Below, piece by piece: positions 14,164 through 27,010 of a stretch of DNA of 64,000 nt. A program made the position numbers and the translations under genes. Each line of letters starts with the position of its first letter. The first letter of the stretch is position 1. Below the pieces are notes generated by a model. That model did no database searches and had not been told where the DNA came from. It was given only the letters and a program-made list of their open reading frames with translations. Source of the DNA: an uncultured Gammaproteobacteria bacterium (GTDB taxonomy: Bacteria > Patescibacteriota > Microgenomatia > Levybacterales > UBA12049). The stretch lies in contig CAZCYO010000002.1 of the NCBI GenBank assembly GCA_964503265.1, positions 2,604 through 66,603 of the forward strand, written 5' to 3'.

Positions 14164-14268
14164 AGTAAAAGTATAGCAATAATATAATAATTCGAATACA
14201 CAATTTATCAGATTCTTCTCTTATTTGCGGTTATGAACGTAACTTGCTAAAATACAGCTATCCACTTT

Positions 14269-14342
14269 GCCCCAATAGCTCAGCTGGATAGAGCACATCG
14301 GTTCTAACGATTAGGTCGGGGGTTCGAATCCCTCTTGGGGTA
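14269..14342 (+). tRNA. tRNA-Arg (anticodon TCT)
   Basis: Hand-folded: acceptor GCCCCAA/TTGGGGT, D stem GCTC/GAGC, anticodon loop GTTCTAA, T-loop TTCGAAT. Confidence 0.85.
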
Positions 14343-14347
14343 CTATG

Positions 14348-15151
14348 CTATTTCTTTTTTAGCATTTCTTTGGTTACTCGAATACTTCTTCCTTTCCCTC
14401 CGAAATCTTCGCATACAAATACTGGTTTTTCAGGTTTACTTAAAGTGGGGGAGTATGTGTAGCCGAGTTCTGCAAAATATACGAGGTCTTCTTTTTTTGT
14501 TATTTTATTCGTAATAAGCCAACGAGCGAATGCTCCTCGAGCGATTTTTGCATGAACGACGACAAAACTTGGCTCATTTGTCCTTGGATTTATTGTTAAA
14601 AAATACGGAGCAACGAGACGATTTGAATCCACATATGGAGTAATTGTTCGGAAATATTCTTCAGCTGCGAGGTTTACGATTAGGCCAGAAGAGGGAAGAC
14701 ACTCAACTATATCTTTTCCCCAGAAATCATATAAATCAGCATATTTTTTATTAGGAAGCGTATATCCCATCTCCAGCCGATATGGTGAGATCCCATCGAA
14801 TGGTCGAATACACCCATACAAACCTGAGAGAATAACAAGTACGCTATCAGCATATTCTCTATCACTTTCTGATAAATCGTTAGCGTGTAGGCCACTGTAA
14901 ATGTCACCTAAAAAACTATCGACTGCTACTGATTGTTTCGTCGGTTCTGTGCTCCACTGAGAAAGTAAGTCGTGTGTTTTCTGGGCGAGAGAAGGGGAGA
15001 CCTCCATACTTTTTATTATTTCTTTCACAGAAAGCGTTCTTATATAGTTTCCAAGTTCCTGTGTTTTAGAGAGAAGTTGTGGCTGTCGCAGTGTTTTACC
15101 GTTATTAGGGACTAACTGCATGGTTTTGGAGGAATGAAGTAAAATAGTCAT
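14348..15151 (-). CDS. yaaA: peroxide stress protein YaaA (UPF0246/DUF328)
   Basis: 267 aa; LSGLYGCIRPFDGISPYRLEMG matches YaaA core LSGLYGxLRPLDxMQPYRLEMG. Confidence 0.85.
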   Translation of the reverse strand: MTILLHSSKTMQLVPNNGKTLRQPQLLSKTQELGNYIRTLSVKEIIKSMEVSPSLAQKTHDLLSQWSTEPTKQSVAVDSFLGDIYSGLHANDLSESDREYADSVLVILSGLYGCIRPFDGISPYRLEMGYTLPNKKYADLYDFWGKDIVECLPSSGLIVNLAAEEYFRTITPYVDSNRLVAPYFLTINPRTNEPSFVVVHAKIARGAFARWLITNKITKKEDLVYFAELGYTYSPTLSKPEKPVFVCEDFGGKGRSIRVTKEMLKKK

Positions 15152-15255
15152 CTTAAATAGTTTCTATGACAATTATACAACATCAAGAATTTTCTAAAAT
15201 TACTAGCAACAAATTTATATTGACAGAACTTCAGAGATAGGTTACTGTTTTATAA

Positions 15256-17007
15256 GTGATGAAATTTTATTCAAGATTTTTAATCTTTGTTGCTTTACTT
15301 ACTGCTGGTTTATTCATTTCTTCTCCATCTGCTTTTGCATCTACCGCTGATAAAGGATATTTTGGTATTACTGGCACAGAGGCAGGAGTACCAAATCTAT
15401 TAACTAATCTCGATGTAAATTCTGTATATACATGGACACAGGGTGGTGGTGCTCCAAATACATCAGGATATACTACTTTTTTAACATTACGCCTCGGATA
15501 TTATTGGTGGAACCATAATAGTCAAAACTTTTTCACTCTAGCAAGTCCTGATCCAACTGGGTGTAATAAAAGCTTCACAGTTCCTTCAAATGGACAAACT
15601 GTTTGGTACAACGAATGCACAATTGATGCACGGATAAATACATTATTTAATTCAGCAAATCAACAAACAGTTCAATATTTCGTGCTGGGTAATGAACCAA
15701 ATATTCGTTCAGATAATGATAGTGACGGAAGTTTGCCGTCAGGATGGGATAATACAAATAGTAATACAACGTTATTAGCACAATATCAAGCAAAGCAGTA
15801 TGAAATTCTCTTTAATCGTTTAACAATATTTAAACAATCTCACCCAAGTTATACCATTAAAGTTGTTGGACCGAGTATACTTGGTTTTTCATCAGCGATG
15901 AATAACGGAGTCTCATGGTTCAACGCATTTAGAACAGCCTATGGATCAAATCCTCCGATGGATTATTTGAATTACCACGCTTATGATACAGCCCTCATTG
16001 GAAGTCCAAATTATGTTCGAAGAATGAGTGTAACTGATGTTGCATCAGATTTATCTTATTTCCGCACAGAAATGAATAATGATGGGTATAGTGGAAAAGA
16101 AATTTTTATAACTGAATTTGGAATACCTAACTGCTCAGTCTCCGCTTGCTCACTAAATTCTGAGAGTGCCTCTCAAACATATCTCGATGGATTGATTAAC
16201 CATTTCAGAGCGAATAAAAGCACATTACTTCTTAAGGGGTGGATGTTATTTAGCTTAAGAAAGCCTCAAAACCCAACACCAGTTGTGTATCCTATTAACA
16301 GTGTAAATCTAACAGATAGTAACGGGAACATTACAACGACCGGTACATGGTATAAAAAGAAAATTGCTCAGGAATTCTGGGATGTTTCACCAACACATCT
16401 TTTCTTTGATCCTATTCAAAAACTAGTTACCACAAAAGCAGCATTAGATGGATCGACGATTAGTGGCTGTGAAGGAGTAGGAAGTACTGGACTTAAAAAA
16501 TACTGTGACTCTCTCATAATTATTAGACAGGAAATGGCTAAATTTCATATCGTGGCGATGAAGGAAAACATCAGTACAAATCCTAACAGTTTTACCGATG
16601 TCGGATGTACTTCAGGTCCTCAATGTGGTGATATCATCTTTTCAAAATATATTGAAAAAATGAAATCACGAGGTATTACTGTAGGCTGTGGAGCCGGAGT
16701 ATTTTGTCCAATGGATCAAGTCAGTCGTGGTGCCATGATTACATTCATCGCACGATCATTTAATGTAGATTTCGCTAATTATACTCCACCTGCAACAAAA
16801 TCATTCGAGGATGTAAATCCAGGGACTACATACTATAAAGCTGTAGAATTTGCTAAATCCAGAGGTATTACAAATGGTAAAAATGGTGGATGTGGATATC
16901 CTCAAGGAACACTTGTATTCTGCCCAGGAGATATGGTTCGAAGAGACGAAATGGCAGCATTCCTCATGAATGCATATCCACTTACTGTTTCTTATTTTCA
17001 ACAATAG
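15256..17007 (+). CDS. secreted glycoside hydrolase (GH5-like) with two C-terminal SLH-like domains
   Basis: Signal peptide; LGNEPN acid/base motif and ITEFG nucleophile motif typical of clan GH-A; C-terminal repeats with SLH-like consensus (FxDV...GI..G......F.P...V.R.E.A.F). Confidence 0.65.
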   Translation: MMKFYSRFLIFVALLTAGLFISSPSAFASTADKGYFGITGTEAGVPNLLTNLDVNSVYTWTQGGGAPNTSGYTTFLTLRLGYYWWNHNSQNFFTLASPDPTGCNKSFTVPSNGQTVWYNECTIDARINTLFNSANQQTVQYFVLGNEPNIRSDNDSDGSLPSGWDNTNSNTTLLAQYQAKQYEILFNRLTIFKQSHPSYTIKVVGPSILGFSSAMNNGVSWFNAFRTAYGSNPPMDYLNYHAYDTALIGSPNYVRRMSVTDVASDLSYFRTEMNNDGYSGKEIFITEFGIPNCSVSACSLNSESASQTYLDGLINHFRANKSTLLLKGWMLFSLRKPQNPTPVVYPINSVNLTDSNGNITTTGTWYKKKIAQEFWDVSPTHLFFDPIQKLVTTKAALDGSTISGCEGVGSTGLKKYCDSLIIIRQEMAKFHIVAMKENISTNPNSFTDVGCTSGPQCGDIIFSKYIEKMKSRGITVGCGAGVFCPMDQVSRGAMITFIARSFNVDFANYTPPATKSFEDVNPGTTYYKAVEFAKSRGITNGKNGGCGYPQGTLVFCPGDMVRRDEMAAFLMNAYPLTVSYFQQ

Positions 17008-17057
17008 ATTTTCACACTACCATCGTGAAAAAAAACACCCATCGAATTATGCTATAG

Positions 17058-17450
17058 TTAGTTCTTACTCGCTGATAATGAAGGCCAGCGGATGGTTACA
17101 ATGACAGAATCTTCGTAGGTTTCGGACTCGTGGGGAATATTTGGTGACCAAATGACATAATCGCCTTCATTCGATAACACAATTTCTTCACCGTGATCAA
17201 ATGTTATTCGATACTTACCACGAATGAGTAGAGAAATTGTTTTAGCGTCTCCTGCTGCTGCTTTACTTGAACGAATTTCGCCTTTGGGATGGATTCCCCA
17301 TTTGACTTCAATATCATTTGTTGTTTTTAGCGGTGTAGTAGGGGATACAAATGCACCAATAAACCATCCACGTTTCCCGTCTTGTCCTTCGGCTATGGCA
17401 TTACCTATTTCAATTTCTTGATTATTCTGTAAATCACTCATCAAACTCAT
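17058..17450 (-). CDS. cupin-domain protein
   Basis: 130 aa; beta-rich small protein with cupin-like His-containing motifs (weak assignment). Confidence 0.45.
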   Translation of the reverse strand: MSLMSDLQNNQEIEIGNAIAEGQDGKRGWFIGAFVSPTTPLKTTNDIEVKWGIHPKGEIRSSKAAAGDAKTISLLIRGKYRITFDHGEEIVLSNEGDYVIWSPNIPHESETYEDSVIVTIRWPSLSASKN

Positions 17451-17491
17451 TATATCAAATGATTATGGCTAAGAATGTCATGCAGTTATGA

Positions 17492-19498
17492 TTACATCAC
17501 CAATCCTTCTAACGATTGAGTCTCGATTATTGGCGCATGCTGTGTAACTGCTGGAGTATTCGCCTCCGCTCCTAAAATTCCATCCACAAGTATTTCACCG
17601 ATACGATGGATCGCAGTAACTCGTTCGTTCATTCCTTTTCCGTCGATAAATGCACCGGCATCATTCATAAATGGCTTACCACCAGCCATAATAACTATGG
17701 CGTATGGCTTTCCATTTATGGTGACAATTGCTGCATCGCCAATCATGTTTCCATATAATCCCCATTTATGAATAATAGGAAGGTTACTATCTTGAGCGAC
17801 AGGCGTTAGTAAATCTTCACGACTAGTCGTTCCTCCCTGCATCCAAGAAAAAAGAAGGTCTTTTTGGTTTTCTGGGATAACATCGCCTTTATAAACATTT
17901 GAGAGAAAGGTAGCTAAATCATCTGAAGATGTGTAGTTATTTGCGATGTCAAAATTAGTCGCACCATGGACATGTGCGAAGTTTTCAATTCTACTTTTCC
18001 CGATGAGTCCATAGAGTGTTTTCCAGGCGACATTATCACTTTGATTTATCATCAGTCGCATGAGTTGCTCGACGGTATAGTTGCCAACTTTTTGGTCAAG
18101 ACGGATATCTCCTTTATTCACTGCATCAAATACCGCTGCCGCGACATATACTTTAACGGTGCTGGCACCAGTGTCTACACGATCTCCCTTAATGCCCACC
18201 ACCATTTCTCCGCTTTCTATATCTCGAACAGAAATAGCCACATCAATATTCTTTTTTTGATATTCAGCGATAATTTCCTGGACTTTTTCATTCATGTTCA
18301 CATACACATTTTCTTTCGGTTCTGAAACTTCATGTGGTTGTGGAAGATTTGCACTCACCTGAATAACCGGCATCTCAACGTGATGCGGTCCTTCGGCTAG
18401 AGGAGGAGGAATACTTTCTCCTTGTGTAATTGTCTGAGGAATTTCTGATGTATTAAGTTGTGGATCCTGGGGAGGAATCATATTCTGCGAAACGATAGGG
18501 TGATAATTTGATTGTGGGACTGTCGTCTCAGGTAATTCTAGACGCTGACTAGTTAGGGACGTATCGAGTGTTTGCGTGGGAACAACTTCGCGAGGTGAAT
18601 CAGTAGCGATAACTTTTGCATTTTCTGCCACGGTTCCCATAAGTGAAAGTACTACTGCTGCTGCCATAACACGCTGTGTAACTCTTTGTTTCCATCCAAG
18701 TCTTTTTCTGTGCAGTCGTTCTTTTTCTCGTGCTTTTATAATTTGTGCATCAAGGCCTTTTTGCAGTCTCTTAGCACGATCAGCTGCTTCTGCCTCTAAA
18801 CGATTCTCTGATGATGATTCACTGTGAGATACAGTATCGAAAGAAACAACAGGCGCTTCTTCTTCTGTGGCAGTGTCTAACTGATCTAGCGGTTGTGCAC
18901 TAGCTAACTCAGTTTGTGCGGGAGAAGGCGCTAGCTCATCAGGCTCTAGCTGTGGCGCAAGCTGTGGCGCAAGTGGTTTATCCTGAGCAGTTATTTGCTC
19001 AAGAACAGTATGTGCAGTTGTAGTAGACACTGCTTCACGTAAAGCATGAATGCGGGCTCGTTGGTTAATACTGGTTAAGAGTTTACGGGTTTCAGCAACA
19101 CTTACTACGAGGGCATCCTTCGCGATACTTGAAGCTAATTGCTCTCGAACTAATGCGTTAAATTCTTTTATTTTTCCTTTTTCTTTGAGCCCATCTGCAA
19201 CTAGTCTCTCTTTAATTTGAGCTCGCAATTCTTTTTTTCGAGCAGCTAGGGAATTTTTCAATTCATTTCGTACTTCCATAATTCCTTCTTTAAGTTCATC
19301 GGTACTTCTTCCTTCAGAAAGAATCGATGCGAAAATAGAAGATGCAATGTTTTTCCCTTCAGCACTTATCTTATTCGTACCTTCTTTAAGAATAGATGAT
19401 CCGACAGGCTGTGATGAAATTTTCTCTTTGAGGATAGATGACGTGGATGGTACGTGGATTGTTTCGCCGTTTGATTGAACACCTTCGGATTCTGCCAT
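17492..19498 (-). CDS. membrane protein: cytoplasmic coiled-coil N-domain, one TM, extracytoplasmic class-A beta-lactamase/PBP-like serine hydrolase domain
   Basis: 668 aa; STVK (SxxK), SDN and KWG(KTG-like) motifs in C-terminal 270 aa; TM VMAAAVVLSLMGTVA; APQL repeats. Confidence 0.7.
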   Translation of the reverse strand: MAESEGVQSNGETIHVPSTSSILKEKISSQPVGSSILKEGTNKISAEGKNIASSIFASILSEGRSTDELKEGIMEVRNELKNSLAARKKELRAQIKERLVADGLKEKGKIKEFNALVREQLASSIAKDALVVSVAETRKLLTSINQRARIHALREAVSTTTAHTVLEQITAQDKPLAPQLAPQLEPDELAPSPAQTELASAQPLDQLDTATEEEAPVVSFDTVSHSESSSENRLEAEAADRAKRLQKGLDAQIIKAREKERLHRKRLGWKQRVTQRVMAAAVVLSLMGTVAENAKVIATDSPREVVPTQTLDTSLTSQRLELPETTVPQSNYHPIVSQNMIPPQDPQLNTSEIPQTITQGESIPPPLAEGPHHVEMPVIQVSANLPQPHEVSEPKENVYVNMNEKVQEIIAEYQKKNIDVAISVRDIESGEMVVGIKGDRVDTGASTVKVYVAAAVFDAVNKGDIRLDQKVGNYTVEQLMRLMINQSDNVAWKTLYGLIGKSRIENFAHVHGATNFDIANNYTSSDDLATFLSNVYKGDVIPENQKDLLFSWMQGGTTSREDLLTPVAQDSNLPIIHKWGLYGNMIGDAAIVTINGKPYAIVIMAGGKPFMNDAGAFIDGKGMNERVTAIHRIGEILVDGILGAEANTPAVTQHAPIIETQSLEGLVM

Positions 19499-19501
19499 GG
19501 C

Positions 19502-19795
19502 TTATGTTTCTAATTCTTGAAGAGCAGTATCTATTGCTTTAGCAATTTTCGTATCAAGATCAGGAATTTTTCCTCGTGCAAAGGAAAGTGCTTTTTCATC
19601 CTGTTCTTCTTCACAAAGTCGTAAAAAAATTAATGCATCGTCCTCAGATAATCCTTCAAGGGTTGTATTAAGTGCAATCGTTGAACCAAGCTCACTTAGG
19701 GAATCAATAAATGTTTCTTGCTTTTCAGCTGGGGCTTCCTCAAGTTGAAAATATCCGAGAAGAGATTTTTTAAGTTCTGGTGTAAAAAACGACAT
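19502..19795 (-). CDS. small acidic hypothetical protein
   Basis: 97 aa, 4 nt upstream of previous gene (operon). Confidence 0.4.
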   Translation of the reverse strand: MSFFTPELKKSLLGYFQLEEAPAEKQETFIDSLSELGSTIALNTTLEGLSEDDALIFLRLCEEEQDEKALSFARGKIPDLDTKIAKAIDTALQELET

Positions 19796-19839
19796 ATCAT
19801 AATAGTAAGATAAAGAACTAGGAGAAGCAATAACTGTCC

Positions 19840-19867
19840 CTCTTTGACAATCTCAGTTCATCTGATA
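19840..19867 (+). repeat. 28-bp direct repeat copy 1 (contains TTGACA)
   Basis: ctctttgacaatctcagttcatctgata identical to 22280..22307. Confidence 0.8.
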
Positions 19868-20170
19868 AGTCTTGCGCGTGGATCCCACTATAAATATCAC
19901 CTAAAAAGTTATCGATAGCTATTGATTATCGAGCAGGCTCAGTAGTCCAGTGTGAAAGGAGGTCATGGGTTTTAATTGTTAAAGCAGAGAAGATATCCAT
20001 ACTTTTTTCTATTTCTCCTGGGGAAAGCTCTTTCAGATAATTTCCAAGCTCGTGTGCTTTAGAGAATAGTTGAGGTTATCTCAGCGTCTCACCTTGAGGG
20101 GCACAGACTGCATGGTTTTTGATGAGTGTAATAAAATTGTCATTTCTTATAGTTTCAAGTGTAATTATAC
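19868..20170 (-). pseudogene. degraded duplicate of yaaA 5' region (first about 95 codons plus about 35 bp upstream)
   Basis: About 70% nt identity to 14871..15185 by eye; translation MTILLHSSKTMQSVPLKVRR* has multiple stops. Confidence 0.7.
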
Positions 20171-20183
20171 ATTCGTACGTATT

Positions 20184-20945
20184 TTAATATACCGTAATTT
20201 TTCTGTGAGCAATGCTAATTTTTCCTTCTTTTGCTAACTCATCGAGTGCTTCTGTTACCCGTGAGCGAGTCGCCCAGAGTAAGTCTGCAATTTCTTCTTG
20301 GGAAAGTGTGATTTCGTTATTCGGAAAGTAGGGAGCAAGGTACGTAAGGACAATCATCGTACGTTCGTGAAGGTTTTTTGAAAATAATTCTTCTAAATAG
20401 TTGTCGAAATAGGTAACCGTGCTTGCAAATAATTCAAAAAAAATAAAAGCAAGTGTGGGGTATTCATGTACGAGTCGTTCGAAATCATTTTGGGATAGAA
20501 CGAGTGTTTCTGTCTGGAGAAGTGCTTGGGCGCTTACTGTATTTGGTTTATTATTAATGAGTCCCATTTCTCCAATCATATCTTTCGTTCCTAAAATATC
20601 GATATTTATGTAATGACCTTCAAGAGTCGTTCTATATGTACTCACGACTCCTTCATAAATAAAATATGCATGATGACTATCAGCATCTTGAAATAGTATT
20701 ACATCAGACTTCTGAAATGTTTTTGGATAGGTCCATTCTGCTAATGCTCTAAGTGTTTTCGTCGAAACATCAGCAAAAAGCGGAAAGACACTTAAGATTT
20801 GTAATTTTTCGTCTGTTGACATGAGCTTATTATAAGCCTTTATTCGCCATCTCTCAACTATAACCCCTAAGGATACTCTACCTACTTCTTTTACATCGTT
20901 CCCCAGAGAACATAAATTCGTGCCTATTCCTTCTATTATCACCAT
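20184..20945 (-). CDS. Crp/Fnr-family transcriptional regulator
   Basis: 253 aa; cNMP-binding-like beta-roll plus C-terminal HTH RSRVTEALDELAKEGKI. Confidence 0.8.
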   Translation of the reverse strand: MVIIEGIGTNLCSLGNDVKEVGRVSLGVIVERWRIKAYNKLMSTDEKLQILSVFPLFADVSTKTLRALAEWTYPKTFQKSDVILFQDADSHHAYFIYEGVVSTYRTTLEGHYINIDILGTKDMIGEMGLINNKPNTVSAQALLQTETLVLSQNDFERLVHEYPTLAFIFFELFASTVTYFDNYLEELFSKNLHERTMIVLTYLAPYFPNNEITLSQEEIADLLWATRSRVTEALDELAKEGKISIAHRKITVY

Positions 20946-21119
20946 AGAAATAAAGAAATCTAGACAATTTGCGTCACCAATTTCTTTTTTCTACTATTCG
21001 CACATTAACAAGATATGGATCAATTCTCTGATAGAGCACAGAGGAAAGAAGAGTAACTCTTTTCTTTTTTCTCAACTCTATCAGAGAGATAGAGGAGGGT
21101 ATATAAGGAGGACATAGTC

Positions 21120-21521
21120 ATGTACGACGAGCCCGAAGAGAGCTATCGGTTTATCCCACCGTTCATCATCTGGACGTTCGTGATCATCCTGGCGCTCACG
21201 TTCGCGACAGTCGCTGGAGTGAAGGTTTACCAACACTACCAGCTTGGCATCGAGAACCGAAACACCCAGATCGTTAGGCAATCGAACCAGTACGTCACGA
21301 GCAAGCAAGAACACCTCGTCACGCTCATGGCCGACTACCGAGACCTTCAGGTGAAGATCGACGTACTGTCGAAAGATCCTTCGAACATGACGACAGTCGC
21401 TGGGATGCAGGACCAAGAGCGGGCGATTGTGCGCGAGATGCGCCAAACGACCGCAACACTGCAACCAGACCAGATCCCACCCGACATCGCGCGATTCCTC
21501 GCCGAATCATCGTACCGCTAA
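21120..21521 (+). CDS. hypothetical membrane-anchored protein in high-GC segment
   Basis: 133 aa; TM FIIWTFVIILALTFATVAGV; SD aaggagg; GC far above genome background. Confidence 0.5.
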   Translation: MYDEPEESYRFIPPFIIWTFVIILALTFATVAGVKVYQHYQLGIENRNTQIVRQSNQYVTSKQEHLVTLMADYRDLQVKIDVLSKDPSNMTTVAGMQDQERAIVREMRQTTATLQPDQIPPDIARFLAESSYR

Positions 21522-21544
21522 TCTACTCCCGAAAGGAGACAGCA

Positions 21545-22189
21545 GTGGATACTCAAACAATCACTCTTCGTTTCCCACGTCGGTGGGTGACAATGATCAG
21601 CGTCTTCGTCGTGTGTACCATGGCGTTTCTTCTGCTGAGCGCGAGCTCTTGTGATGGCACTTCGAGTGCCGAGCAGAATGACCGAGCTGTCACCGACAAG
21701 CAACTGGACATCTACAATAAGGCGCAGCCCGTGCACCTGTACAACTACAGCATGCCCAGGGATGTCATGCAGCAGATCTACGATAGCATCATGACTGCGC
21801 ATAACACCTGGACGGTCTTCTTCGAAGCCGGCATCGGCGCGGTGGACATGTGTCCGTCAGTAGGATTTCCCATCCCTGGCGGTACACAGCTCACCAACCC
21901 GGAGAAGCCGCTCTGGAATAACAGCGCAAGCGCTACGATTCCTCAAGCAGAACCGACCGGGCTGTACCCGCCAGCTGGCTCGAGCGATAGCACGTGGGTT
22001 CTCTGTGTCTACAATGGCAAAGTGGAACCTCGCTACTCCGAGCCACATGTTATGACATACACCCACCCAGTCAAGGTGGAGAATGGGAAGATAATCCATC
22101 TCGATGGTGCATCGTCGATCACGATCAACATCAACTCGCCGAGTAGTCCTGTCGTGGATACTTCGCCCTCACCGTCTCCGTCTCGCTAA
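21545..22189 (+). CDS. hypothetical secreted/lipoprotein-like protein in high-GC segment
   Basis: 214 aa; N-terminal TM/signal with Cys (LLLSASSCDG); Pro/Ser-rich C-terminus. Confidence 0.5.
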   Translation: MDTQTITLRFPRRWVTMISVFVVCTMAFLLLSASSCDGTSSAEQNDRAVTDKQLDIYNKAQPVHLYNYSMPRDVMQQIYDSIMTAHNTWTVFFEAGIGAVDMCPSVGFPIPGGTQLTNPEKPLWNNSASATIPQAEPTGLYPPAGSSDSTWVLCVYNGKVEPRYSEPHVMTYTHPVKVENGKIIHLDGASSITININSPSSPVVDTSPSPSPSR

Positions 22190-22229
22190 CGATCCATATC
22201 CTGCTTCCACGTAGGGAGCATGTGCATTT

Positions 22230-22257
22230 GGCCCGGATGGATAACACCATCCGGGCC
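22230..22257 (+). terminator. GC-rich hairpin terminator after high-GC ORFs
   Basis: ggcccggatgg-ataaca-ccatccgggcc then T-rich. Confidence 0.5.
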
Positions 22258-22279
22258 TTCTGCGTTATATAAAGACATT

Positions 22280-22307
22280 CTCTTTGACAATCTCAGTTCA
22301 TCTGATA
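22280..22307 (+). repeat. 28-bp direct repeat copy 2; functions as promoter of the AI-2E gene
   Basis: TTGACA-16-TATAGT upstream of ATG 22318. Confidence 0.8.
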
Positions 22308-22317
22308 TAGTTAAGAT

Positions 22318-23313
22318 ATGACTCCACGATTTTTGCAATATTTGCTTCGGAACCAAGTCATTTTTGCGCTGTTTTTAATTGGATTTGGATGGTTTATTTA
22401 TATGACAAGAGGCATTATCGCTTCTATTTTTATCGCATATATTATTACTGCTGCAATTATGCCTATCGTCGCATTTTTACGACGATGTAAAGTACCACGA
22501 GTGCTCGCTATTATTACGACATATCTCGTGATCCTTATTATTCTTTTTTCATTAATTCTTCCACTTGTGCCATTCTTTATAACGCAGGTGAGAGCTCTTG
22601 TCACAGGACTTCCAGGATATATCGATCAAGCAGCAAATGTACTGGGAATGCGTATTAACCAAGCACAAATTCGAGAATTCGCTAACCAAGAACTCGGAGC
22701 ACTTGGTCAAAATGCCTTTGAGGTAACCAGACAAGTATTTGGCGGAGTATTTTCAACACTCACGATCTTCATTATTGCGCTTTATATGACGCTCTATCAT
22801 GATCAATTTAAACATACATTTGCGAAATTATTTCATCGAGACGACAGACCACATGTCGAGGAAACATTTGAACTTGTGGATGAAAAATTAGGAGCTTGGC
22901 TTCGAGGACAGGTACTTCTCTCACTAACAATTGGGCTGTTTACATGGATTGCACTTAGTGCTGTCGGACTAAACTATGCACTTCCACTCGCACTGTTAGC
23001 TGGTTTTCTCGAAGTTATTCCAACCATCGGACCAATTTTATCTGCTATACCAGCAGTAATCGTAGCACTGACCATTTCACCGACGATGGCACTCGTCGTC
23101 ATCGGAATCTATATCGCAATTCAACTTGCTGAGAATAACATCATCGTACCCAAAATTATGCAGCATGCAGTAGGGCTAAATCCTGTTATTATTATTATCG
23201 CAATTTTAGTCGGAGCAGAGTTACTTGGCATCACTGGAGCATTACTATCACTTCCATTCGTCTCATTTGTTACAGTGATTTTTCATAGCCTCCAAACAGC
23301 AGACGATAAATAA
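22318..23313 (+). CDS. AI-2E family transporter (PerM/UPF0118)
   Basis: 331 aa polytopic; LAGFLEVIPTIGPIL and AENNIIVPKIM match family signature. Confidence 0.85.
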   Translation: MTPRFLQYLLRNQVIFALFLIGFGWFIYMTRGIIASIFIAYIITAAIMPIVAFLRRCKVPRVLAIITTYLVILIILFSLILPLVPFFITQVRALVTGLPGYIDQAANVLGMRINQAQIREFANQELGALGQNAFEVTRQVFGGVFSTLTIFIIALYMTLYHDQFKHTFAKLFHRDDRPHVEETFELVDEKLGAWLRGQVLLSLTIGLFTWIALSAVGLNYALPLALLAGFLEVIPTIGPILSAIPAVIVALTISPTMALVVIGIYIAIQLAENNIIVPKIMQHAVGLNPVIIIIAILVGAELLGITGALLSLPFVSFVTVIFHSLQTADDK

Positions 23314-23353
23314 CTTTCCATTTGTGTTCAATTTTGCTAAAATACTCTTACTT

Positions 23354-23424
23354 GCGGGTGTAGTTCAATGGCAGAACACAACTTTTCCAAAGTTGATACG
23401 AGGGTTCGATTCCCTTCACCCGCT
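23354..23424 (+). tRNA. tRNA-Gly (anticodon TCC)
   Basis: Hand-folded: acceptor GCGGGTG/CACCCGC, D stem GTTC/GAAC, anticodon stem CAACT/AGTTG loop TTTCCAA, T-loop TTCGATT. Confidence 0.85.
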
Positions 23425-23445
23425 CACATTAGTAATTAGTTGTGA

Positions 23446-24207
23446 TTGGTTATTGGAATCACAATAATTTCCCCTTTGCATTCCTTAGGTATACTATACT
23501 CTGCTATGGATATTAAAAAAGAATTTTTTCATGTATATGATTCCTTTATTCATCTCTTTCTGAAAGATGAAAAAAAACCATATACGTATGTATCACTTGG
23601 AGACAGCACAGTTCAAGGGCTTGGTGCCACGAACCAAGCCAGAACCTATCCTGGGATTATTTTTGGCGCACTGAAAGAAACACATAAAGATGCAGCTTGG
23701 CATAACTTAGGCAGACAAGAATTTCGTGTGTGCGATATTATCGATCATCGACTAGAAAAAGCAATTTCTTTTAAGCCTGATCTTGTCACACTTTCTGTTG
23801 GAGCAAATGATATTCGGTATAGAACACGAGCACGTAAATTTGAAAATGACTTACAACTGTTGTTAACGAGATTAAAAAAAGAAACAAACGCTGAGATTGT
23901 GATGAATACCATTCCTGACTTTTCACTAACTCCAGCAGTCCCGAAAAATTTAAAAGCATATACGAGACTCGCCGTATGGAGATTTAATCGAATTATCGCA
24001 AATCAAACTAAAAAAGCAGGAGTGGTTCTCGTCGATCTTCATCTCCTGAGTAAGATATATGCAAAAAACTATCCCGAGACAATTGCACCTGATGGATTCC
24101 ATCCAACAGATTTCGGATATGCGATTTGGGCCAACACGATTCTCAGTCAAATTCAAGAAATCGTTTTTACCAAGAGAAAAAGAATATTTAGGAAAATTAG
24201 CATATAA
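23446..24207 (+). CDS. SGNH/GDSL-family hydrolase
   Basis: GDS motif VSLGDSTVQG, GANDI block, C-terminal DGFHP; true start probably at MDIKK (23506). Confidence 0.75.
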   Translation: MVIGITIISPLHSLGILYSAMDIKKEFFHVYDSFIHLFLKDEKKPYTYVSLGDSTVQGLGATNQARTYPGIIFGALKETHKDAAWHNLGRQEFRVCDIIDHRLEKAISFKPDLVTLSVGANDIRYRTRARKFENDLQLLLTRLKKETNAEIVMNTIPDFSLTPAVPKNLKAYTRLAVWRFNRIIANQTKKAGVVLVDLHLLSKIYAKNYPETIAPDGFHPTDFGYAIWANTILSQIQEIVFTKRKRIFRKISI

Positions 24208-24273
24208 ATATGATCATGTTTTAACTTCGAAAACCTTGTAATATTATAGGGTATATACTATAATGATCTCCTG

Positions 24274-24300
24274 CCTCGTATTTCGATACGAGGTTTTTTT
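24274..24300 (+). terminator. rho-independent terminator
   Basis: cctcgtat-ttcg-atacgagg followed by T7. Confidence 0.6.
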
Positions 24301-25932
24301 ATGAGACATATTCCCAATCTACTTACATATAATAAACCGTCTGGACTTTCACGACTGATAACGTTTTTTTCTCGACCTCATGTAACAGCATTTACCCATC
24401 TTAGGACAACAGAAAAAGGCAAAGGATTCTTCTATAAAGGGAAAGAATTTGTACACCATTCAGATCTTGCGCTATCTGAAACTGCTTTTCATCGTTTTTC
24501 TTCTGCACAAATAGTTATGCTCGCTCTTTTCGCTATCAGCTTTGAGATCGGACTATTTATGAATTGGCATGCCACCCTCGTAGTACTCATGGGAATTCTG
24601 ACGTTTCTTTATTTTTTTGATTTATTATTTAATTTTTTTCTTATTTTTCGGAGCTTCATCAATCCTACAGAAATTCATATAACTCATAAAGAACTTGTAA
24701 ATGTTGACTCTGCTGAATGGCCTATGTACACGGTGTTTTGCCCATTATATAAAGAATGGCAAGTCCTACCGCAATTCGTTAAAGCCATGAGCGCACTTGA
24801 TTATCCAAAAGATAAAGTAGAAGTTATGCTTCTTCTTGAAGAGGACGATAAAGAAACAATTCGCCACGTCAATGAATATAATTTACCAAATTATTTCACC
24901 GTGACAATAGTTCCACATTCTTTTCCTAAAACAAAACCAAAAGCATGTAACTATGGTCTTCTTCGTGCAAAAGGGGACTATATCGTGATATATGATGCTG
25001 AAGATATCCCAGATCCTAAACAGTTAAAAAAAGCAGTACTCGCTTTCAAAAAAACAGGAGAAAAAACAGTTTGTATCCAGGCAAAACTTAACTTTTATAA
25101 TCCACATCAAAATATGCTTACACGTGCATTTACAGCTGAATATTCACTATGGTTTGATTTAGTCCTCACCGGGCTTCAATCAATTAATGCACCAATTCCA
25201 CTTGGTGGCACGTCTAATCACTTTAGGAAAAACGATTTACTAAAACTTCGTGGATGGGATTCATTTAATGTAACTGAAGATTGTGATTTAGGAATGAGAA
25301 TTGCAAAACAAGGCCTACGAACTGCACTTCTGGATTCAACAACGCTTGAGGAAGCAAATAGTGGGAAGAAGAATTGGCTTCTCCAAAGAAGCAGGTGGAT
25401 TAAAGGATATATGCAGACATATCTCGTTCACATGAGAAACCCCAGTGAATTCATGAAGAATTGGCGTACACCACATCTTATTACCTTTCAATTAGTAGTC
25501 GGTGGGAAAGTACTCTCGATGTTTATCAATCCACTCATGTGGACGATTACAATTTCATATTTTACTCTTCGTGCATATTTTGGCACATTTATCGAGTCAT
25601 TTTTCCCAGGCATTATTCTTTATATGGGTATCTTCTCGCTATTAGTCGGGAATTTTCTCTATGCATATTATTATATGATTGGGTGTGCGAAGCACGGTCA
25701 TCATGAACTTATTAAATATGTCTTTCTCATTCCATTTTACTGGCTTGCTATGAGTGTCGCAGCATGGATTGCACTATACAAATTAATTGTCGCACCACAT
25801 CACTGGTCTAAAACCAAACACGGTCTTCATTTAGCAAAACATAATCGACGAAAGAAAAGTTTCTTTAAAATCCCTGCAATTTCATCTTTTCCAACGAACA
25901 TTACCTATTTTGACTTTTCTACCATTTCATAA
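24301..25932 (+). CDS. family-2 glycosyltransferase, processive beta-glycan synthase type (cellulose-synthase-like)
   Basis: 543 aa; D..DAEDIPDP (DxD) and QRSRWIKG (QxxRW) motifs; multiple TM helices flanking. Confidence 0.85.
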   Translation: MRHIPNLLTYNKPSGLSRLITFFSRPHVTAFTHLRTTEKGKGFFYKGKEFVHHSDLALSETAFHRFSSAQIVMLALFAISFEIGLFMNWHATLVVLMGILTFLYFFDLLFNFFLIFRSFINPTEIHITHKELVNVDSAEWPMYTVFCPLYKEWQVLPQFVKAMSALDYPKDKVEVMLLLEEDDKETIRHVNEYNLPNYFTVTIVPHSFPKTKPKACNYGLLRAKGDYIVIYDAEDIPDPKQLKKAVLAFKKTGEKTVCIQAKLNFYNPHQNMLTRAFTAEYSLWFDLVLTGLQSINAPIPLGGTSNHFRKNDLLKLRGWDSFNVTEDCDLGMRIAKQGLRTALLDSTTLEEANSGKKNWLLQRSRWIKGYMQTYLVHMRNPSEFMKNWRTPHLITFQLVVGGKVLSMFINPLMWTITISYFTLRAYFGTFIESFFPGIILYMGIFSLLVGNFLYAYYYMIGCAKHGHHELIKYVFLIPFYWLAMSVAAWIALYKLIVAPHHWSKTKHGLHLAKHNRRKKSFFKIPAISSFPTNITYFDFSTIS

Positions 25933-25991
25933 GTACTTTCTGTTTGACTTATCCTAGCTCAACTGATAAGGTAATTTAGGAAAGGAGAGAT

Positions 25992-26087
25992 ATGAAAACG
26001 AACAATCCTAAGAAACCAAAATCACTTATCAAAAAACGTACTGATGGCTCCCAGAAGAAACTTATCCGAAAGAGAAAAGAGAAATAG
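25992..26087 (+). CDS. small Lys/Arg-rich hypothetical peptide (31 aa)
   Basis: SD ggaaaggagag upstream of ATG; MKTNNPKKPKSLIKKRTDGSQKKLIRKRKEK. Confidence 0.25.
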   Translation: MKTNNPKKPKSLIKKRTDGSQKKLIRKRKEK

Positions 26088-26090
26088 TCG

Positions 26091-26783
26091 TTATTGAATT
26101 ATTTCTTTCACATGTTCTCGCATCACTGCTAGCTCACTTTTAACAGCAGCTTTACTATCACTTCCGTGAATAAGATTGTTGTGTCTTCCTGTAGCGAAAG
26201 TTCCTCGTATTGAATCCTCAGCAGCACCATCGACACTCCAATGCCCAATTTGAGATCTCAGCATCTCCACTGCATCTCCTGTGGGTGAATAAAGAAGTAC
26301 AAGCGTACTGACTCCATTCGTCATCATATGTGAGAATTCTTCCCATCTGTGAGAAAATCTTCCTTCATTCTGAGGATGGTTCGGTTTAACTTGTTGTTGT
26401 TTTTCTTTTTGATGTCCACCCCAGAACGCATCAAGCATGTCCTGTGTAAATAAAACTGATAGTGAAAATACCGGTTCTAGAGAAGCGGGAAGTGCGTTAA
26501 TAATCGCCGTAGCAGCGTTTTCATCACTTAGACCTAATTTGTTATCATGCAGATCTGGCTTAAGAAGTGCAAGCGCGATAGCTCCATCATCAATAAGATC
26601 ATCGAGATGAGGATGTGCTAATGCAGCATTTACTCTTTGAAGATATTCTTTATCCAGCTCAGTCAGTGGTAACAGTTCATAATCTTGTGGATCTCGTTCT
26701 GCTACAACATGGATAAGTGACTGCCGAGAAAGAGTAGGAGTTTCTTGGAGATCTTTAAGCTGAGGGAGTATTTGTTCAGACAT
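26091..26783 (-). CDS. nucleoside-diphosphate-kinase-like protein with N-terminal extension
   Basis: C-terminal NLIHGSDS (NDK active-site His motif), RGTFA, LLKPD blocks; 230 aa vs about 140 for canonical NDK. Confidence 0.55.
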   Translation of the reverse strand: MSEQILPQLKDLQETPTLSRQSLIHVVAERDPQDYELLPLTELDKEYLQRVNAALAHPHLDDLIDDGAIALALLKPDLHDNKLGLSDENAATAIINALPASLEPVFSLSVLFTQDMLDAFWGGHQKEKQQQVKPNHPQNEGRFSHRWEEFSHMMTNGVSTLVLLYSPTGDAVEMLRSQIGHWSVDGAAEDSIRGTFATGRHNNLIHGSDSKAAVKSELAVMREHVKEIIQ

Positions 26784-26936
26784 TATTTTTTTTCTCTAAA
26801 GTATTAAGCAGTTGTAAGAATTTATCTATCTGTACGATATCAGCTATACGCTTCTTTTTCGTGTCAGCTTCACTATTATTAAGAGGAACTTGTGGTAAAG
26901 TACTATCCATCCTGCTATCCTAGCACAAATTATTTG

Positions 26937-27010
26937 TCGGGGACAGAGGACTTGAACCTCCGACCTCACGGTCCCAAACCGCGCGCTCTAGCCAACTGAG
27001 CTAGTCCCCG
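26937..27010 (-). tRNA. tRNA-Pro (anticodon TGG)
   Basis: Hand-folded: acceptor CGGGGAC/GTCCCCG, D stem GCTC/GAGC, anticodon loop TTTGGGA, T-loop TTCAAGT. Confidence 0.85.

What the first reader, a model, noticed from the sequence alone, without database searches (positions are those of the whole stretch)
19840..22307. 2.4-kb mosaic insertion bounded by identical 28-bp direct repeats, containing a yaaA pseudo-fragment, a Crp regulator and a roughly 57% GC two-gene segment
The exact 28-mer ctctttgacaatctcagttcatctgata occurs at 19840..19867 and 22280..22307. The second copy is the TTGACA-16-TATAGT promoter of the AI-2E transporter gene. Between the copies lie three things: a decayed duplicate of the yaaA 5' region (19868..20170, stops in frame; the real gene is 5 kb away), a Crp/Fnr regulator, and a 1.15-kb block (21120..22260) whose GC content is far above the genome. 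The high-GC block encodes a membrane protein and a lipoprotein-like protein, and is preceded by a 60-bp imperfect palindrome (21026..21086). This looks like either a very recent foreign insertion with promoter duplication or an assembly chimera.
Basis: seen in the sequence. Interest (0 to 1): 0.65.

Follow-up and report, generated by a model that had tools for sequence, protein, structure and literature searches.

The report
Phage-derived gene pair beside recombination scar
In a small-genome (CPR/Patescibacteria) bacterium, two envelope-protein genes captured long ago from a phage of a GC-rich host sit next to a duplicated 28-base promoter; the duplicate marks where two versions of the same locus were joined by sloppy recombination, so this is real and mildly interesting, not an assembly error or a fresh insertion.

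Summary

**Not a chimera.** Contigs from other assemblies cover the junctions of the high-GC block. Two of them come from diverged strains (3% and 8% nucleotide divergence).

**Not recent.** Three lineages share the high-GC block, and both of its genes are under purifying selection (dN/dS about 0.13).

**What the block is.** It is a conserved phage two-gene module: a single-pass membrane protein followed by a lipoprotein (phrog_24725, function unknown). The closest homologues lie on 67-69% GC phage-like contigs, one of them just upstream of terminase genes.

**Not one insertion.**
- In related species, yaaA is the direct divergent neighbour of the AI-2E gene.
- The yaaA fragment is therefore a relic of a second, once-functional yaaA (dN/dS 0.18, dS about 1.2). 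It was inactivated only lately.
- The second 28-mer copy is the native AI-2E promoter. The first copy abuts the truncated yaaA at a 7-nt microhomology (TCTGATA), which is the mark of an illegitimate crossover.

**Seen in passing.** A roughly 250-nt non-coding stretch upstream of the pair, which contains the palindrome, is almost invariant across the three lineages.

Interest is moderate to low.

The parts
14348..15151 (-). Intact resident yaaA (267 aa). It lies 5 nt from tRNA-Arg(tct) at 14269-14343.
   Evidence: Pfam H2O2_YaaD, E 1.9e-61. tRNA.
19502..19795 (-). 97-aa gene of unknown function. Together with 44 nt of its own upstream region it forms the left flank of 28-mer copy 1.
   Evidence: ORF, no family hit. 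A -10-like TACTAT followed by 6 nt and then ATG is visible.
19840..19867 (+). 28-mer copy 1: a duplicate of the -35 element and spacer of the AI-2E promoter. The -10 is lost (TAAGTC instead of TATAGT).
19861..19867 (.). TCTGATA, the 7-nt microhomology shared by the promoter 3' end and the yaaA coding sequence. This is the crossover point.
   Evidence: Three-way comparison of the copy 1, copy 2 and yaaA contexts.
19861..20143 (-). yaaA' pseudogene: the first ~95 codons of a second yaaA. It carries two CAA>TAA nonsense changes and one 1-nt frameshift.
   Evidence: dN/dS to yaaA is 0.18, and differences by codon position are 26/12/44.
20144..20171 (-). Upstream region of yaaA', with the conserved TGTATAATT extended -10 at 20163-20171. 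The same motif precedes yaaA in this window and in L024.
   Evidence: (repeat family D2).
20184..20822 (-). Crp/Fnr-family regulator, probably 212 aa starting at the ATG at 20822 (the ORF extends to 20945). Its composition is native-like (GC3 0.29).
   Evidence: Promoter-like TTGAGA-17-TATAAT at 20857-20829, 11 of 12 matches. Between strains, 20823-20896 varies without the every-third-base pattern seen in the coding part. GC3.
20897..21119 (+). Nearly invariant non-coding stretch, a candidate promoter plus long 5' leader of the 133/214 operon. It contains the hairpin at 21025-21087 and the AAGGAGG ribosome-binding site.
   Evidence: Over 20897-21147 there are 4 mismatches in about 250 nt to L022 and 5 to L007, while dS in the flanking genes is 0.09-0.45 to L022 or L007. 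RNA fold z = -4.5. No credible Rfam family match.
21120..21521 (+). 133-aa single-pass membrane protein with a helical extracytoplasmic tail. First gene of the phage-derived pair.
   Evidence: 44% identical (E 1e-42) to the ORF preceding the lipoprotein homologue on phage contig L004. dN/dS 0.126 to L022. GC3 0.74.
21545..22189 (+). 214-aa lipoprotein-like protein (GTG start preceded by AAAGGAG). Member of phrog_24725, function unknown.
   Evidence: dN/dS 0.139 over 252 nt. GC3 0.66.
22230..22257 (+). GC-rich 11-bp stem-loop at the 3' end of the foreign block, a likely terminator carried in with the pair.
   Evidence: Fold of 22186-22285: -38.8 kcal/mol, z = -5.4. The T-run is weak, so the simple terminator scan did not report it.
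22280..22307 (+). 28-mer copy 2: the resident AI-2E promoter, with -35 at 22284-22289, -10 TATAGT at 22306-22311 and the ATG at 22318.
   Evidence: It is conserved at the same position in L023, L024 and L025, and their similarity to the window starts at 22280-22282.
22318..23313 (+). AI-2E family transporter gene. It is followed by tRNA-Gly and a GDSL lipase gene, as in the relatives.

Best explanation
**Overall.** The region is a genuine, rearrangement-prone locus of a Patescibacteria (CPR) genome. It records three separate events rather than one insertion.

**1. Ancestral state (shown by comparison).** yaaA and the AI-2E transporter gene were divergent neighbours. A short intergenic region held both promoters.

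**2. Old acquisition (shown).**
- That intergenic region now holds a native-looking crp gene, a strongly conserved non-coding leader, and a 1.15-kb phage-derived cassette.
- The cassette consists of a single-pass membrane protein, a lipoprotein and a GC-rich stem-loop.
- It came from a phage of a GC-rich host, or from a prophage in such a host.
- It has been kept under purifying selection in at least three lineages.

**Function of the pair (inferred).** In phages the module sits among early and DNA-metabolism genes. The most likely role is therefore an envelope-acting one, such as blocking entry or adsorption of other phages (superinfection exclusion type). In this bacterium it would be expressed from the conserved leader, possibly under the neighbouring Crp-type regulator.

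**3. Recent crossover.**
- Shown: the anatomy of the joint. An illegitimate crossover at the 7-nt microhomology TCTGATA joined the 3' edge of a copy of the AI-2E promoter to codon ~95 of that yaaA.
- Inferred: the mechanism. The promoter copy carried the 97-aa/beta-lactamase-like/glycosidase/yaaA block on its left.
- The result is two tandem, differently loaded versions of the old unit 'yaaA - intergenic - promoter'.
  - Unit 1 is intact yaaA, 4.7 kb of cargo, then 28-mer copy 1.
  - Unit 2 is truncated yaaA', crp plus the phage pair, then 28-mer copy 2 and AI-2E.
- The two 28-mers are identical because this last event is recent. The yaaA' remnant has since picked up only two nonsense changes and one frameshift.
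- Undetermined: whether the crossover was between two strains (one-sided homology plus a microhomology joint, as in transformation) or within one genome.
For: **The sequence is real.**
- L001 is 100% identical to window 14287-23402.
- L006 covers 21785-23467 and L019 covers 21350-19962.
- L007 (97.2%) and L022 (92.1%) are collinear without gaps.

**The acquisition is old and the genes are selected.** dN/dS to L022 is 0.126 for the 133-aa gene, 0.139 for the 214-aa gene and 0.18 for crp, with dS 0.22-0.45.

**The pair is of phage origin.**
- Closest homologues are 63-47% identical and lie on 67-69% GC contigs.
- On L004 the pair sits directly upstream of small and large terminase genes (PHROG E 4e-22 and 3e-101).
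- The 214-aa protein hits phrog_24725.
- Homologues occur in cultured Vibrio N4-like and T5-like phages and in a cyanophage.
- 22 IMG/VR viral contigs encode a relative. Most of the 18 examined have a TM-protein ORF directly upstream.
- The family has 848 clusters at 50% identity.
- GC3 of the pair is 0.66-0.74, against 0.15-0.31 for native genes and 0.86-0.94 for the closest phage-like homologues.

**Ancestral adjacency.**
- L024/L025 (AI-2E 82% aa identity) have yaaA(-), a 164-nt intergenic region, then AI-2E(+).
- Their similarity to the window begins exactly at 22280.
- L023 (77%) has no crp and no pair upstream of AI-2E.

**yaaA' was once a working gene.** dN/dS is 0.18, differences by codon position are 26/12/44, and there are two CAA>TAA changes plus one frameshift.

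**The joint.** The copy 1 context matches copy 2 up to 19867. It matches yaaA from 19861 onward. The overlap is TCTGATA.

**The duplication is recent.** The promoter spacer differs at 6-7 of 28 positions in L023 and L024, yet the two copies here are 28/28 identical.

**The mechanism is known.** Microhomology joints of 3-10 bp with a one-sided homologous anchor are documented in transformable bacteria (PMC6382021, citing de Vries & Wackernagel 2002 and Prudhomme 2002).

**Phage neighbours of the module.** They are endonuclease VII, methyltransferase, Cas4-like exonuclease, thymidylate synthase and similar. No holin or endolysin was found.
Against: **No view of either parent arrangement.** I found no contig with a full-length second yaaA next to crp, and none with the 97-aa gene next to a single promoter. 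The direction and number of steps of the last event are therefore inferred.

**Tension in the two-strain version.** The two parents must have had identical promoters but yaaA genes at dS about 1.2. That needs an earlier exchange at this locus.

**The left edge of the 28-mer shows no microhomology.** Its coincidence with the right end of the foreign block is explained only by assuming that conservation starts at the -35 element.

**Limited coverage of two joints.**
- The copy 1 / yaaA' joint is covered only by the window and by L001, which may derive from the same reads.
- The right edge of the block is covered only by contigs of essentially the same strain.

**The function of the pair is untested.**
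- There is no Pfam, NCBIfam or PADLOC match.
- A confident model (pLDDT 87) has no fold match in the PDB.

**The invariant leader has another possible cause.** In principle it could reflect recent recombination between strains rather than constraint.
Confidence: 0.6

Rival explanations
1. The 2.4 kb (yaaA' through the terminator) entered as one piece into an 'empty' site of the form 97-aa gene / 28-mer / AI-2E. The donor DNA came from a sister strain that carried yaaA-crp-pair-promoter-AI-2E. It was anchored by homology in the promoter/AI-2E region. Its other end joined at the TCTGATA microhomology just after the promoter, which duplicated the 28-mer. A circle integrating through the 28-bp homology would give the same product.
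For: - The product is identical to what is observed, including the microhomology joint and the identical 28-mers.
- The donor arrangement matches the ancestral adjacency seen in L024/L025.
- One-sided-homology integration is documented.
Against: - No relative shows the required empty site. In L023, L024 and L025 the upstream neighbour of AI-2E is tRNA-Arg or yaaA, never the 97-aa gene.
- The crp/pair block is old in this clade, so the recipient strain would have had to lack it.
- An illegitimate joint lying inside the homologous anchor, which gives a duplication rather than a deletion, is not the usual outcome (my own knowledge of that literature).
Confidence: 0.2
2. The event happened within one genome. 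A deletion removed the 3' two-thirds of the second yaaA and whatever lay between it and the 97-aa gene. The break was repaired with a short patch copied from the AI-2E promoter 2.4 kb away, by template switching during replication or repair.
For: - It explains the 28/28 identity without needing two parents with identical promoters.
- It uses the 7-nt microhomology at one side of the patch.
Against: - It needs two template switches, and the first has no microhomology.
- The patch would have to start, by chance, exactly at the upstream edge of the promoter.
- To my knowledge, templated patches of this length are not well documented in bacteria.
Confidence: 0.1
3. The 28-mers are attL/attR cores, or a target-site duplication, of a mobile element (integrative island or transposon) that carried all the cargo between them.
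For: Exact direct repeats flank a compositionally mixed segment.
Against: - There is no integrase, transposase or terminal inverted repeats between or next to the repeats.
- One repeat is the native promoter, conserved in place in other species.
- The cargo begins in the middle of a gene that is the ancestral neighbour of the target.
- A 28-bp target duplication is far longer than those of known bacterial transposons (my own knowledge).
Confidence: 0.03
4. Assembly chimera: the high-GC block, or the copy 1 joint, was stitched in from another organism.
For: There is a sharp GC step. The closest homologues are on high-GC contigs.
Against: - Assemblies from other samples cross the junctions, made with different assemblers (the record names mark SPAdes contigs, Logan contigs and a JGI metagenome contig).
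- Two of them are diverged strains with consistent synonymous-type differences inside the block.
- The 28-mer is shorter than the k of 31 that, to my knowledge, Logan uses, so the repeat could not have been collapsed there.
Confidence: 0.02
5. The pair is a two-component spanin (inner-membrane subunit plus outer-membrane lipoprotein) left over from a decayed prophage. It has no role in this bacterium.
For: - The architecture (TM protein followed by a lipoprotein) and the position just upstream of terminase on L004 recall lambda-type lysis cassettes.
- One family member of 104 weakly hits O_Spanin_T7, E 0.0015.
Against: - No holin or endolysin neighbours were found in the phage contigs examined, which instead carry early and DNA-metabolism genes.
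- The lipoprotein is a conserved 160-200-aa beta-rich globular protein, unlike the short o-spanins as I know them.
- The Vibrio phage AG74 homologue has no lipobox Cys.
- Both genes are under purifying selection in the CPR lineages.
- There are no other prophage genes nearby.
Confidence: 0.05

Closest known systems
Phage 'morons' and small horizontally acquired islets retained in bacterial chromosomes
   Same: A compact unit of two genes plus its own GC-rich stem-loop. Its composition is foreign to the host. It derives from phage genomes and has been retained under selection without the rest of the phage.
   Different: - The recipient is a 38% GC Patescibacteria genome, while the nearest homologues are in 67-69% GC phage-like contigs.
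- No other prophage remnant is present.
- The upstream leader is native-like in composition and unusually conserved.
Phage lipoproteins that mediate superinfection exclusion, such as Llp of T5 (PMC9586334) and Ltp of Streptococcus thermophilus phage TP-J34 (PMC3952083)
   Same: A phage-encoded, signal-peptide/Cys-anchored envelope protein. It is encoded among early or accessory genes rather than with structural or lysis genes.
   Different: - No sequence or fold similarity to a solved structure or a named family was detected: the family is phrog_24725 'unknown function', the PDB fold search was negative, and no direct comparison with Llp or Ltp was run.
- This family is always paired with a small TM protein.
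- The function is untested.
Two-component spanins (Rz/Rz1 type)
   Same: The gene order is a membrane protein with a helical periplasmic part followed by a lipoprotein. In one phage contig the pair lies just before the terminase genes.
   Different: - No linked holin or endolysin.
- The lipoprotein is large, globular and well conserved.
- At least one cultured-phage homologue (Vibrio phage AG74) lacks the lipid-anchor Cys.
Homology-facilitated illegitimate recombination, and microhomology-mediated unequal crossover more generally
   Same: A novel joint at a 7-nt microhomology. It lies between sequences that are otherwise unrelated and sits next to regions that could serve as a homologous anchor (tRNA-Arg on the left, promoter/AI-2E on the right).
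   Different: - The outcome includes a 28-bp duplication of a promoter rather than a simple replacement or deletion.
- Neither parent sequence has been observed.
- Competence of this organism is assumed, not shown.
attL/attR repeats of integrative elements
   Same: Exact direct repeats of about 28 bp flanking a mixed-composition segment.
   Different: - No recombinase gene.
- One repeat is a conserved resident promoter.
- The other repeat is fused to the middle of a gene at a microhomology.

Membership tests
Integrative mobile element bounded by att repeats | Encodes, or is adjacent to, a site-specific recombinase (integrase) | tested here: not met
   All ORFs of 50 aa or more in 13000-27000 were listed, and ten ORFs around the repeats (14348-24207) were scanned against Pfam. 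The hits were only Crp, AI-2E, YaaA, beta-lactamase-like, glycosidase/SLH and GDSL families.
Integrative mobile element bounded by att repeats | Repeats mark the ends of a unit that is absent as a whole from empty sites in relatives | tested here: not met
   L024/L025 lack crp and the pair. They do carry yaaA where yaaA' lies here, so the left part of the 'unit' is ancestral backbone.
Transposon insertion with target-site duplication | Terminal inverted repeats and a transposase, with a short (2-14 bp) target duplication | tested here: not met
   There are no inverted repeats at 19868 and 22279 and no transposase. The duplication is 28 bp.
Microhomology-mediated illegitimate recombination joint | The novel joint lies in a short sequence shared by both parent sequences | tested here: met
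   TCTGATA (19861-19867) is the 3' end of the promoter copy. It also occurs at the corresponding yaaA position, 14868-14874.
Microhomology-mediated illegitimate recombination joint | Both parent arrangements exist, or existed, independently | tested here: inconclusive
   A yaaA-AI-2E adjacency exists in L024/L025. No contig shows a full-length second yaaA beside crp, or the 97-aa gene beside a single promoter.
Horizontally acquired phage gene cassette | Composition deviates from the host genome | tested here: met
   55% against 38% GC overall, and GC3 0.66-0.74 against 0.15-0.31 for native genes.
Horizontally acquired phage gene cassette | Closest homologues are phage-encoded, and the cassette is absent from related genomes at the same locus | tested here: met
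   - L004 has terminase genes next to the pair.
- Cultured phages and 22 IMG/VR contigs carry homologues.
- L023, L024 and L025 lack it.
Two-component spanin | Encoded within a lysis cassette with holin and endolysin | tested here: not met
   Scanned or annotated neighbours in 9 phage genomes or contigs (L020, L021, L029-L031, L033-L035, L040) are early or DNA-metabolism genes or unknowns. None is a lysis gene.
Two-component spanin | Outer-membrane lipoprotein subunit with a lipobox Cys in all members | tested here: inconclusive
   The Cys is conserved in at least 90% of 104 members. It is absent from Vibrio phage AG74 gp164. Here it is followed by Asp, which in enterobacteria signals inner-membrane retention (my own knowledge).
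Crp/Fnr transcription factor (ORF 20184-20822) | cNMP-binding domain followed by a C-terminal Crp-type helix-turn-helix | tested here: met
   Pfam PF00027 at 6e-17 and PF13545 at 8e-7, both above their cut-offs. All NCBIfam equivalog scores are far below their cut-offs, so no specific subfamily can be assigned.
Known structured RNA (Rfam) for the conserved leader | Match to a curated covariance model | tested here: not met
   The only hits are sub-threshold eukaryotic miRNA-precursor models on the hairpin, at 26 bits against gathering scores of 82 or more.

The most novel reading that the evidence does not exclude
The phage-derived membrane-protein/lipoprotein pair, its almost invariant ~220-nt leader with the long hairpin, and the divergent Crp-type regulator may together form a domesticated, regulated envelope or anti-phage module in a CPR episymbiont. 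It would have been captured from a phage that infects GC-rich bacteria, possibly the symbiont's own host. That would be a concrete case of gene flow from a host's virus into its episymbiont, controlled by a new structured RNA leader.
Probability: 0.2. Interest if true: 0.6.

Novelty: new member of a known kind. Interest (0 to 1): 0.35.

Why it matters
**As a check on the scan.** A sharp GC step plus exact flanking repeats in a metagenome-assembled CPR genome turned out to be real biology rather than a chimera. It can be resolved into layers of different age using only public contigs.

**Biologically.**
- It documents long-term retention, under selection, of a phage envelope module of unknown function in a reduced genome that can afford few accessory genes. 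The module belongs to a family with about 850 clusters at 50% identity.
- It points to a strongly constrained leader sequence that may be a new regulatory RNA.
- The repeat itself is an ordinary recombination scar. It is useful mainly as a dated marker of how this hotspot between yaaA and the AI-2E gene is reshuffled.

Tried and rejected
- **Exact look-up of the 214-aa ORF (GTG start).** It found nothing. The collection holds the 198-aa ATG version.
- **Viral-contig scan with the single protein.** No relative found. The alignment-based scan later found 22. The 104-sequence alignment was too diverse to seed a scan.
- **Genome scan with AI-2E.** It gave only 25-54% relatives without synteny. The useful relatives came from the protein search.
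- **tblastn of the 133-aa protein against cultured phages.** No match. Its counterparts there were recognised only by position and architecture.
- **First structure model (14 sequences).** It was poor, pLDDT 63, and its fold search was meaningless.
- **Deep-alignment structure model.** It was good, pLDDT 87, but had no PDB match and only one unnamed viral match.
- **Family and structure-sequence searches on the pair.** The PADLOC and NCBIfam scans and the PDB sequence-profile search for the 214-aa family were all negative.
- **The 45 nt that replace the crp 3' end in L007.** They match nothing in the window or in any fetched locus.
- **A shared regulator site.** I considered that the 7-mer TCTGATA, present in the 28-mers and in both palindrome arms, marks such a site. 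It occurs 16 times in the window on both strands against about 8 expected, so I dropped the idea.
- **An ancient small tandem duplication of yaaA-5'/intergenic/promoter.** I rejected it because yaaA' evolved as a working gene (dN/dS 0.18) while the 28-mers are identical.

Full report
**1.

- The 28-mer CTCTTTGACAATCTCAGTTCATCTGATA occurs at 19840-19867 and 22280-22307 and nowhere else within three mismatches. None is expected by chance.
- The block 21120-22260 is 55% GC in a 38% GC window. It is the only GC-rich island in the 64 kb.
- 19861-20171 resembles the 5' end and upstream region of the yaaA gene at 14348-15151. Identity is 71-75% with one 1-nt indel, and there are in-frame stops.
- The ORFs are a Crp/Fnr regulator and an AI-2E transporter. 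The two GC-rich ORFs have no Pfam match.
- The palindrome at 21025-21087 is real. Folded as RNA it is far more stable than shuffles (z = -4.5).

**2. It is not an assembly chimera**

- A Logan contig from SRR12487046 is 100% identical to window 14287-23402. It ends inside two tRNA genes.
- Two SPAdes contigs from ENA ERZ4216102 cover 21785-23467 and 21350-19962. They show one mismatch each, plus a 40-nt deletion in one.
- Two contigs come from clearly different strains.
  - L007 (JGI 3300045318) is 97.2% identical over 21284-20264.
  - L022 (Logan SRR22387770) is 92.1% identical over 20597-21796, without gaps.
- Both edges of the GC-rich block and the boundary between its two genes are therefore seen repeatedly. 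The left edge is seen in diverged genomes.
- The copy 1 / yaaA' joint is covered only by the window and L001. Read mapping would be needed to close that point completely.

**3. The organism**

The AI-2E protein's best matches among species-representative genomes are Patescibacteria, with Levyibacteriota at 47-54%. Closer relatives exist only as metagenome contigs.

**4. The GC-rich block is an old capture from a phage**

*Homologues on phage-like contigs.*
- The 214-aa protein has 14 word-indexed homologues. All but the window's own copy lie on contigs of 1-4.7 kb.
- The three homologue contigs I fetched are 67-69% GC. On each, a homologue of the 133-aa protein lies directly upstream. On L004 it is 44% identical, E 1e-42.
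- On L004 the pair is followed, after one 101-aa ORF, by small and large terminase genes (PHROG E 4e-22 and 3e-101).

*How widespread the family is.*
- The protein matches phrog_24725, function unknown.
- Homologues of about 33% identity are annotated as hypothetical proteins in cultured Vibrio phages and in a Synechococcus phage. The Vibrio phages are N4-like PG11 and T5-like AG74 with its relatives. In the two Vibrio phage genomes I opened (PG11 and AG74), a small TM protein is encoded just upstream.
- An exhaustive profile search finds 848 clusters at 50% identity.
- 22 IMG/VR viral contigs of 31-63% GC encode a relative. Most of the 18 examined show the same TM-protein-then-lipoprotein order.
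- The signal-peptide Cys is conserved in at least 90% of 104 members.

*Composition and age in this genome.*
- GC3 of the pair is 0.66-0.74. Native genes here have 0.15-0.31 and the closest phage-like homologues have 0.86-0.94.
- Three lineages share the arrangement crp - leader - 133 - 214.
- Between the window and L022, dN/dS is 0.126 for the 133-aa gene and 0.139 for the first 252 nt of the 214-aa gene. dS is 0.22-0.26. For crp, dN/dS is 0.18 and dS is 0.45.
- The pair is therefore functional and was acquired before these lineages split. 'Very recent' is refuted for this block.

**5. What the pair might do**

- There is no match in Pfam, NCBIfam, PADLOC or PDB sequences.
- With the deep alignment the AlphaFold model is confident (pLDDT 87). 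It shows three N-terminal helices, the first of which spans the signal peptide, followed by a beta-rich domain. Foldseek finds nothing significant in the PDB and only one unnamed viral protein in BFVD.
- In phage contigs the neighbours are endonuclease VII, HNH endonucleases, DNA methyltransferase, a Cas4-like exonuclease, thymidylate synthase and unknowns. None is a holin or endolysin.
- That argues against a spanin. By analogy with T5 Llp and the Ltp lipoproteins (PMC9586334, PMC3952083), it suggests an envelope-acting accessory function such as superinfection exclusion.
- This is inference. I give it roughly one chance in four.

**6. The segment between the 28-mers is not one insertion**

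*Relatives.* The protein search with AI-2E found relatives at 82% (L024, L025) and 77% (L023, on a 74.8-kb contig).

*Arrangement in L024/L025.*
- The order is yaaA(-), a 164-nt intergenic region, AI-2E(+), tRNA-Gly, then the GDSL lipase gene.
- DNA similarity to the window starts exactly at 22280, the first base of copy 2.
- The yaaA upstream region shares the TGTATAATT motif with both yaaA and yaaA' here.

*Arrangement in L023.* tRNA-Arg precedes AI-2E and yaaA lies 4.5 kb further on. There is no crp and no pair.

*What follows.*
- yaaA' to AI-2E is the old backbone.
- Relative to it, 20172-22279 has been added inside the old intergenic region. This is crp (native-like, GC3 0.29), the leader and the phage pair.
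- Copy 2 is the resident promoter, in place and conserved across species.

**7. The yaaA fragment was a working gene until recently**

- Over the first 95 codons, yaaA' differs from yaaA mainly at third positions (26/12/44). dN/dS is 0.18 and dS about 1.2.
- That is the same pattern and distance as between yaaA and the L023 and L024 orthologues.
- Its only lesions are two CAA>TAA changes, one 1-nt deletion and the truncation.
- A fragment copied from the resident gene and left to decay would not look like this.

**8. The joint and the duplicated promoter**

- The copy 1 context is identical to the copy 2 context from 19840 to 19867.
- It follows the yaaA sequence from 19861 onward. The two overlap in TCTGATA.
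- This is the signature of an illegitimate crossover at a 7-nt microhomology, between the 3' edge of the AI-2E promoter and codon ~95 of the second yaaA.
- In L023 and L024 the promoter keeps its -35 and -10 regions but differs at 6-7 of 28 positions, mostly in the spacer.
- The 28/28 identity here therefore indicates a recent event, not conservation. That fits the light damage in yaaA'.

*The resulting map.* It reads as two tandem versions of one ancestral unit.

| Unit | yaaA part | Cargo | Promoter |
|---|---|---|---|
| 1 | Intact yaaA | Glycosidase/SLH, 130-aa, beta-lactamase-like and 97-aa genes | 28-mer copy 1, cut before its -10 |
| 2 | Truncated yaaA' | crp, leader, phage pair | 28-mer copy 2, followed by AI-2E |

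*Routes to this product.* Three are possible.
- Arrival of the left block, using a homologous anchor near tRNA-Arg and the microhomology joint.
- Arrival of the 2.4 kb into a site of the form 97-aa / promoter / AI-2E.
- An intragenomic deletion with a templated patch.

I could not find either parental arrangement, so the route stays open. One-sided-homology integration with 3-10-bp joints is documented in transformable bacteria.

*Excluded.* An att-type element or a transposon is excluded. There is no recombinase and there are no terminal inverted repeats. One 'repeat' is a conserved resident promoter, and the 'cargo' begins inside an ancestral neighbour gene.

**9. Promoters**

- The two best promoter-like sites are copy 2 (TTGACA-16-TATAGT, with TG) and TTGAGA-17-TATAAT at 20857-20829.
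- The second sits 6 nt before the ATG at 20822. This suggests a 212-aa Crp and a transcript with little or no leader.
- The same geometry, a -10 followed by 6 nt and then ATG, is seen at AI-2E and at the 97-aa gene.
- Copy 1 has TAAGTC in place of the -10, so it is probably weak or dead.

**10. An unexpected extra: the invariant leader**

- From 20897 to 21147 the window differs from L022 at 4 of about 250 positions and from L007 at 5. Adjacent coding regions show dS of about 0.05-0.09 (L007) to 0.22-0.45 (L022), and 20823-20896 varies freely.
- The stretch holds a promoter-like site at its left edge, the 63-nt hairpin and the ribosome-binding site.
- The single change inside the hairpin (21059 C>T in L007) turns a G-C pair into G-U on the + strand.
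- No Rfam family matches.
- It looks like a constrained regulatory leader. With three near-identical sequences, structure cannot be tested.

**11. Verdict**

- The finding is real and its parts are correctly listed.
- It is neither a chimera nor a fresh foreign insertion.
- It combines an old, selected phage-gene capture with a recent, ordinary recombination scar at a hotspot.
- The most interesting loose ends are the unknown function of the phage module and the invariant leader.

Noticed in passing
window 20897-21147: This non-coding stretch upstream of the 133-aa gene is almost invariant among three lineages: 4 mismatches in about 250 nt to L022 and 5 to L007. The flanking genes show dS of about 0.05-0.09 to L007 and 0.22-0.45 to L022. 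It contains the 63-nt hairpin, and the one hairpin substitution keeps pairing as G-U on the + strand. It is a candidate structured 5' leader or regulatory region. There is no Rfam match.
   Followed up: partly
window 23354-23425; L024 1674-1745; L025 1718-1789: The tRNA-Gly(tcc) gene just downstream of the AI-2E gene is on the + strand in the window and in L023. In L024/L025 it is inverted (98.7% identical in reverse orientation), while the flanking genes keep their order.
   Followed up: no
L007 1022-1066 (corresponds to the window position left of 20264): In the 97%-identical strain, the crp reading frame stops at codon 227, which removes the recognition helix. It is followed by 45 nt that match nothing in the window and carry a CTTTGACA promoter-like motif. 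This is either another rearrangement joint at this locus or an artefact at the contig end.
   Followed up: partly
window 23181-23220 (L006): The ENA contig L006 lacks 40 nt inside the AI-2E gene, giving a frameshifted 306-aa product. It is otherwise identical. This is a population variant or a low-coverage assembly error.
   Followed up: no
window 19795, 20822, 22318: Three genes (the 97-aa gene, crp and AI-2E) each have a -10-like hexamer exactly 6 nt before the ATG and no Shine-Dalgarno sequence. This suggests leaderless transcripts. The phage-derived genes, in contrast, have strong AAGGAGG/AAAGGAG sites.
   Followed up: partly
window 14269-15151 and L023 4387-9778: tRNA-Arg(tct) and yaaA are 5 nt apart here. 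In L023 the same two genes are inverted as a pair and separated by 4.5 kb of unrelated genes, with the tRNA next to AI-2E. The whole interval from tRNA-His to AI-2E is reshuffled between species.
   Followed up: partly
window 17492-19498: This is a 668-aa protein with a C-terminal class-A beta-lactamase-like domain (Pfam Beta-lactamase2, E 8e-31). It has a long, low-complexity N-terminal half. It belongs to the block that lies between the two yaaA copies and has no counterpart in the 21 kb of L023 around its AI-2E gene that were fetched.
   Followed up: no
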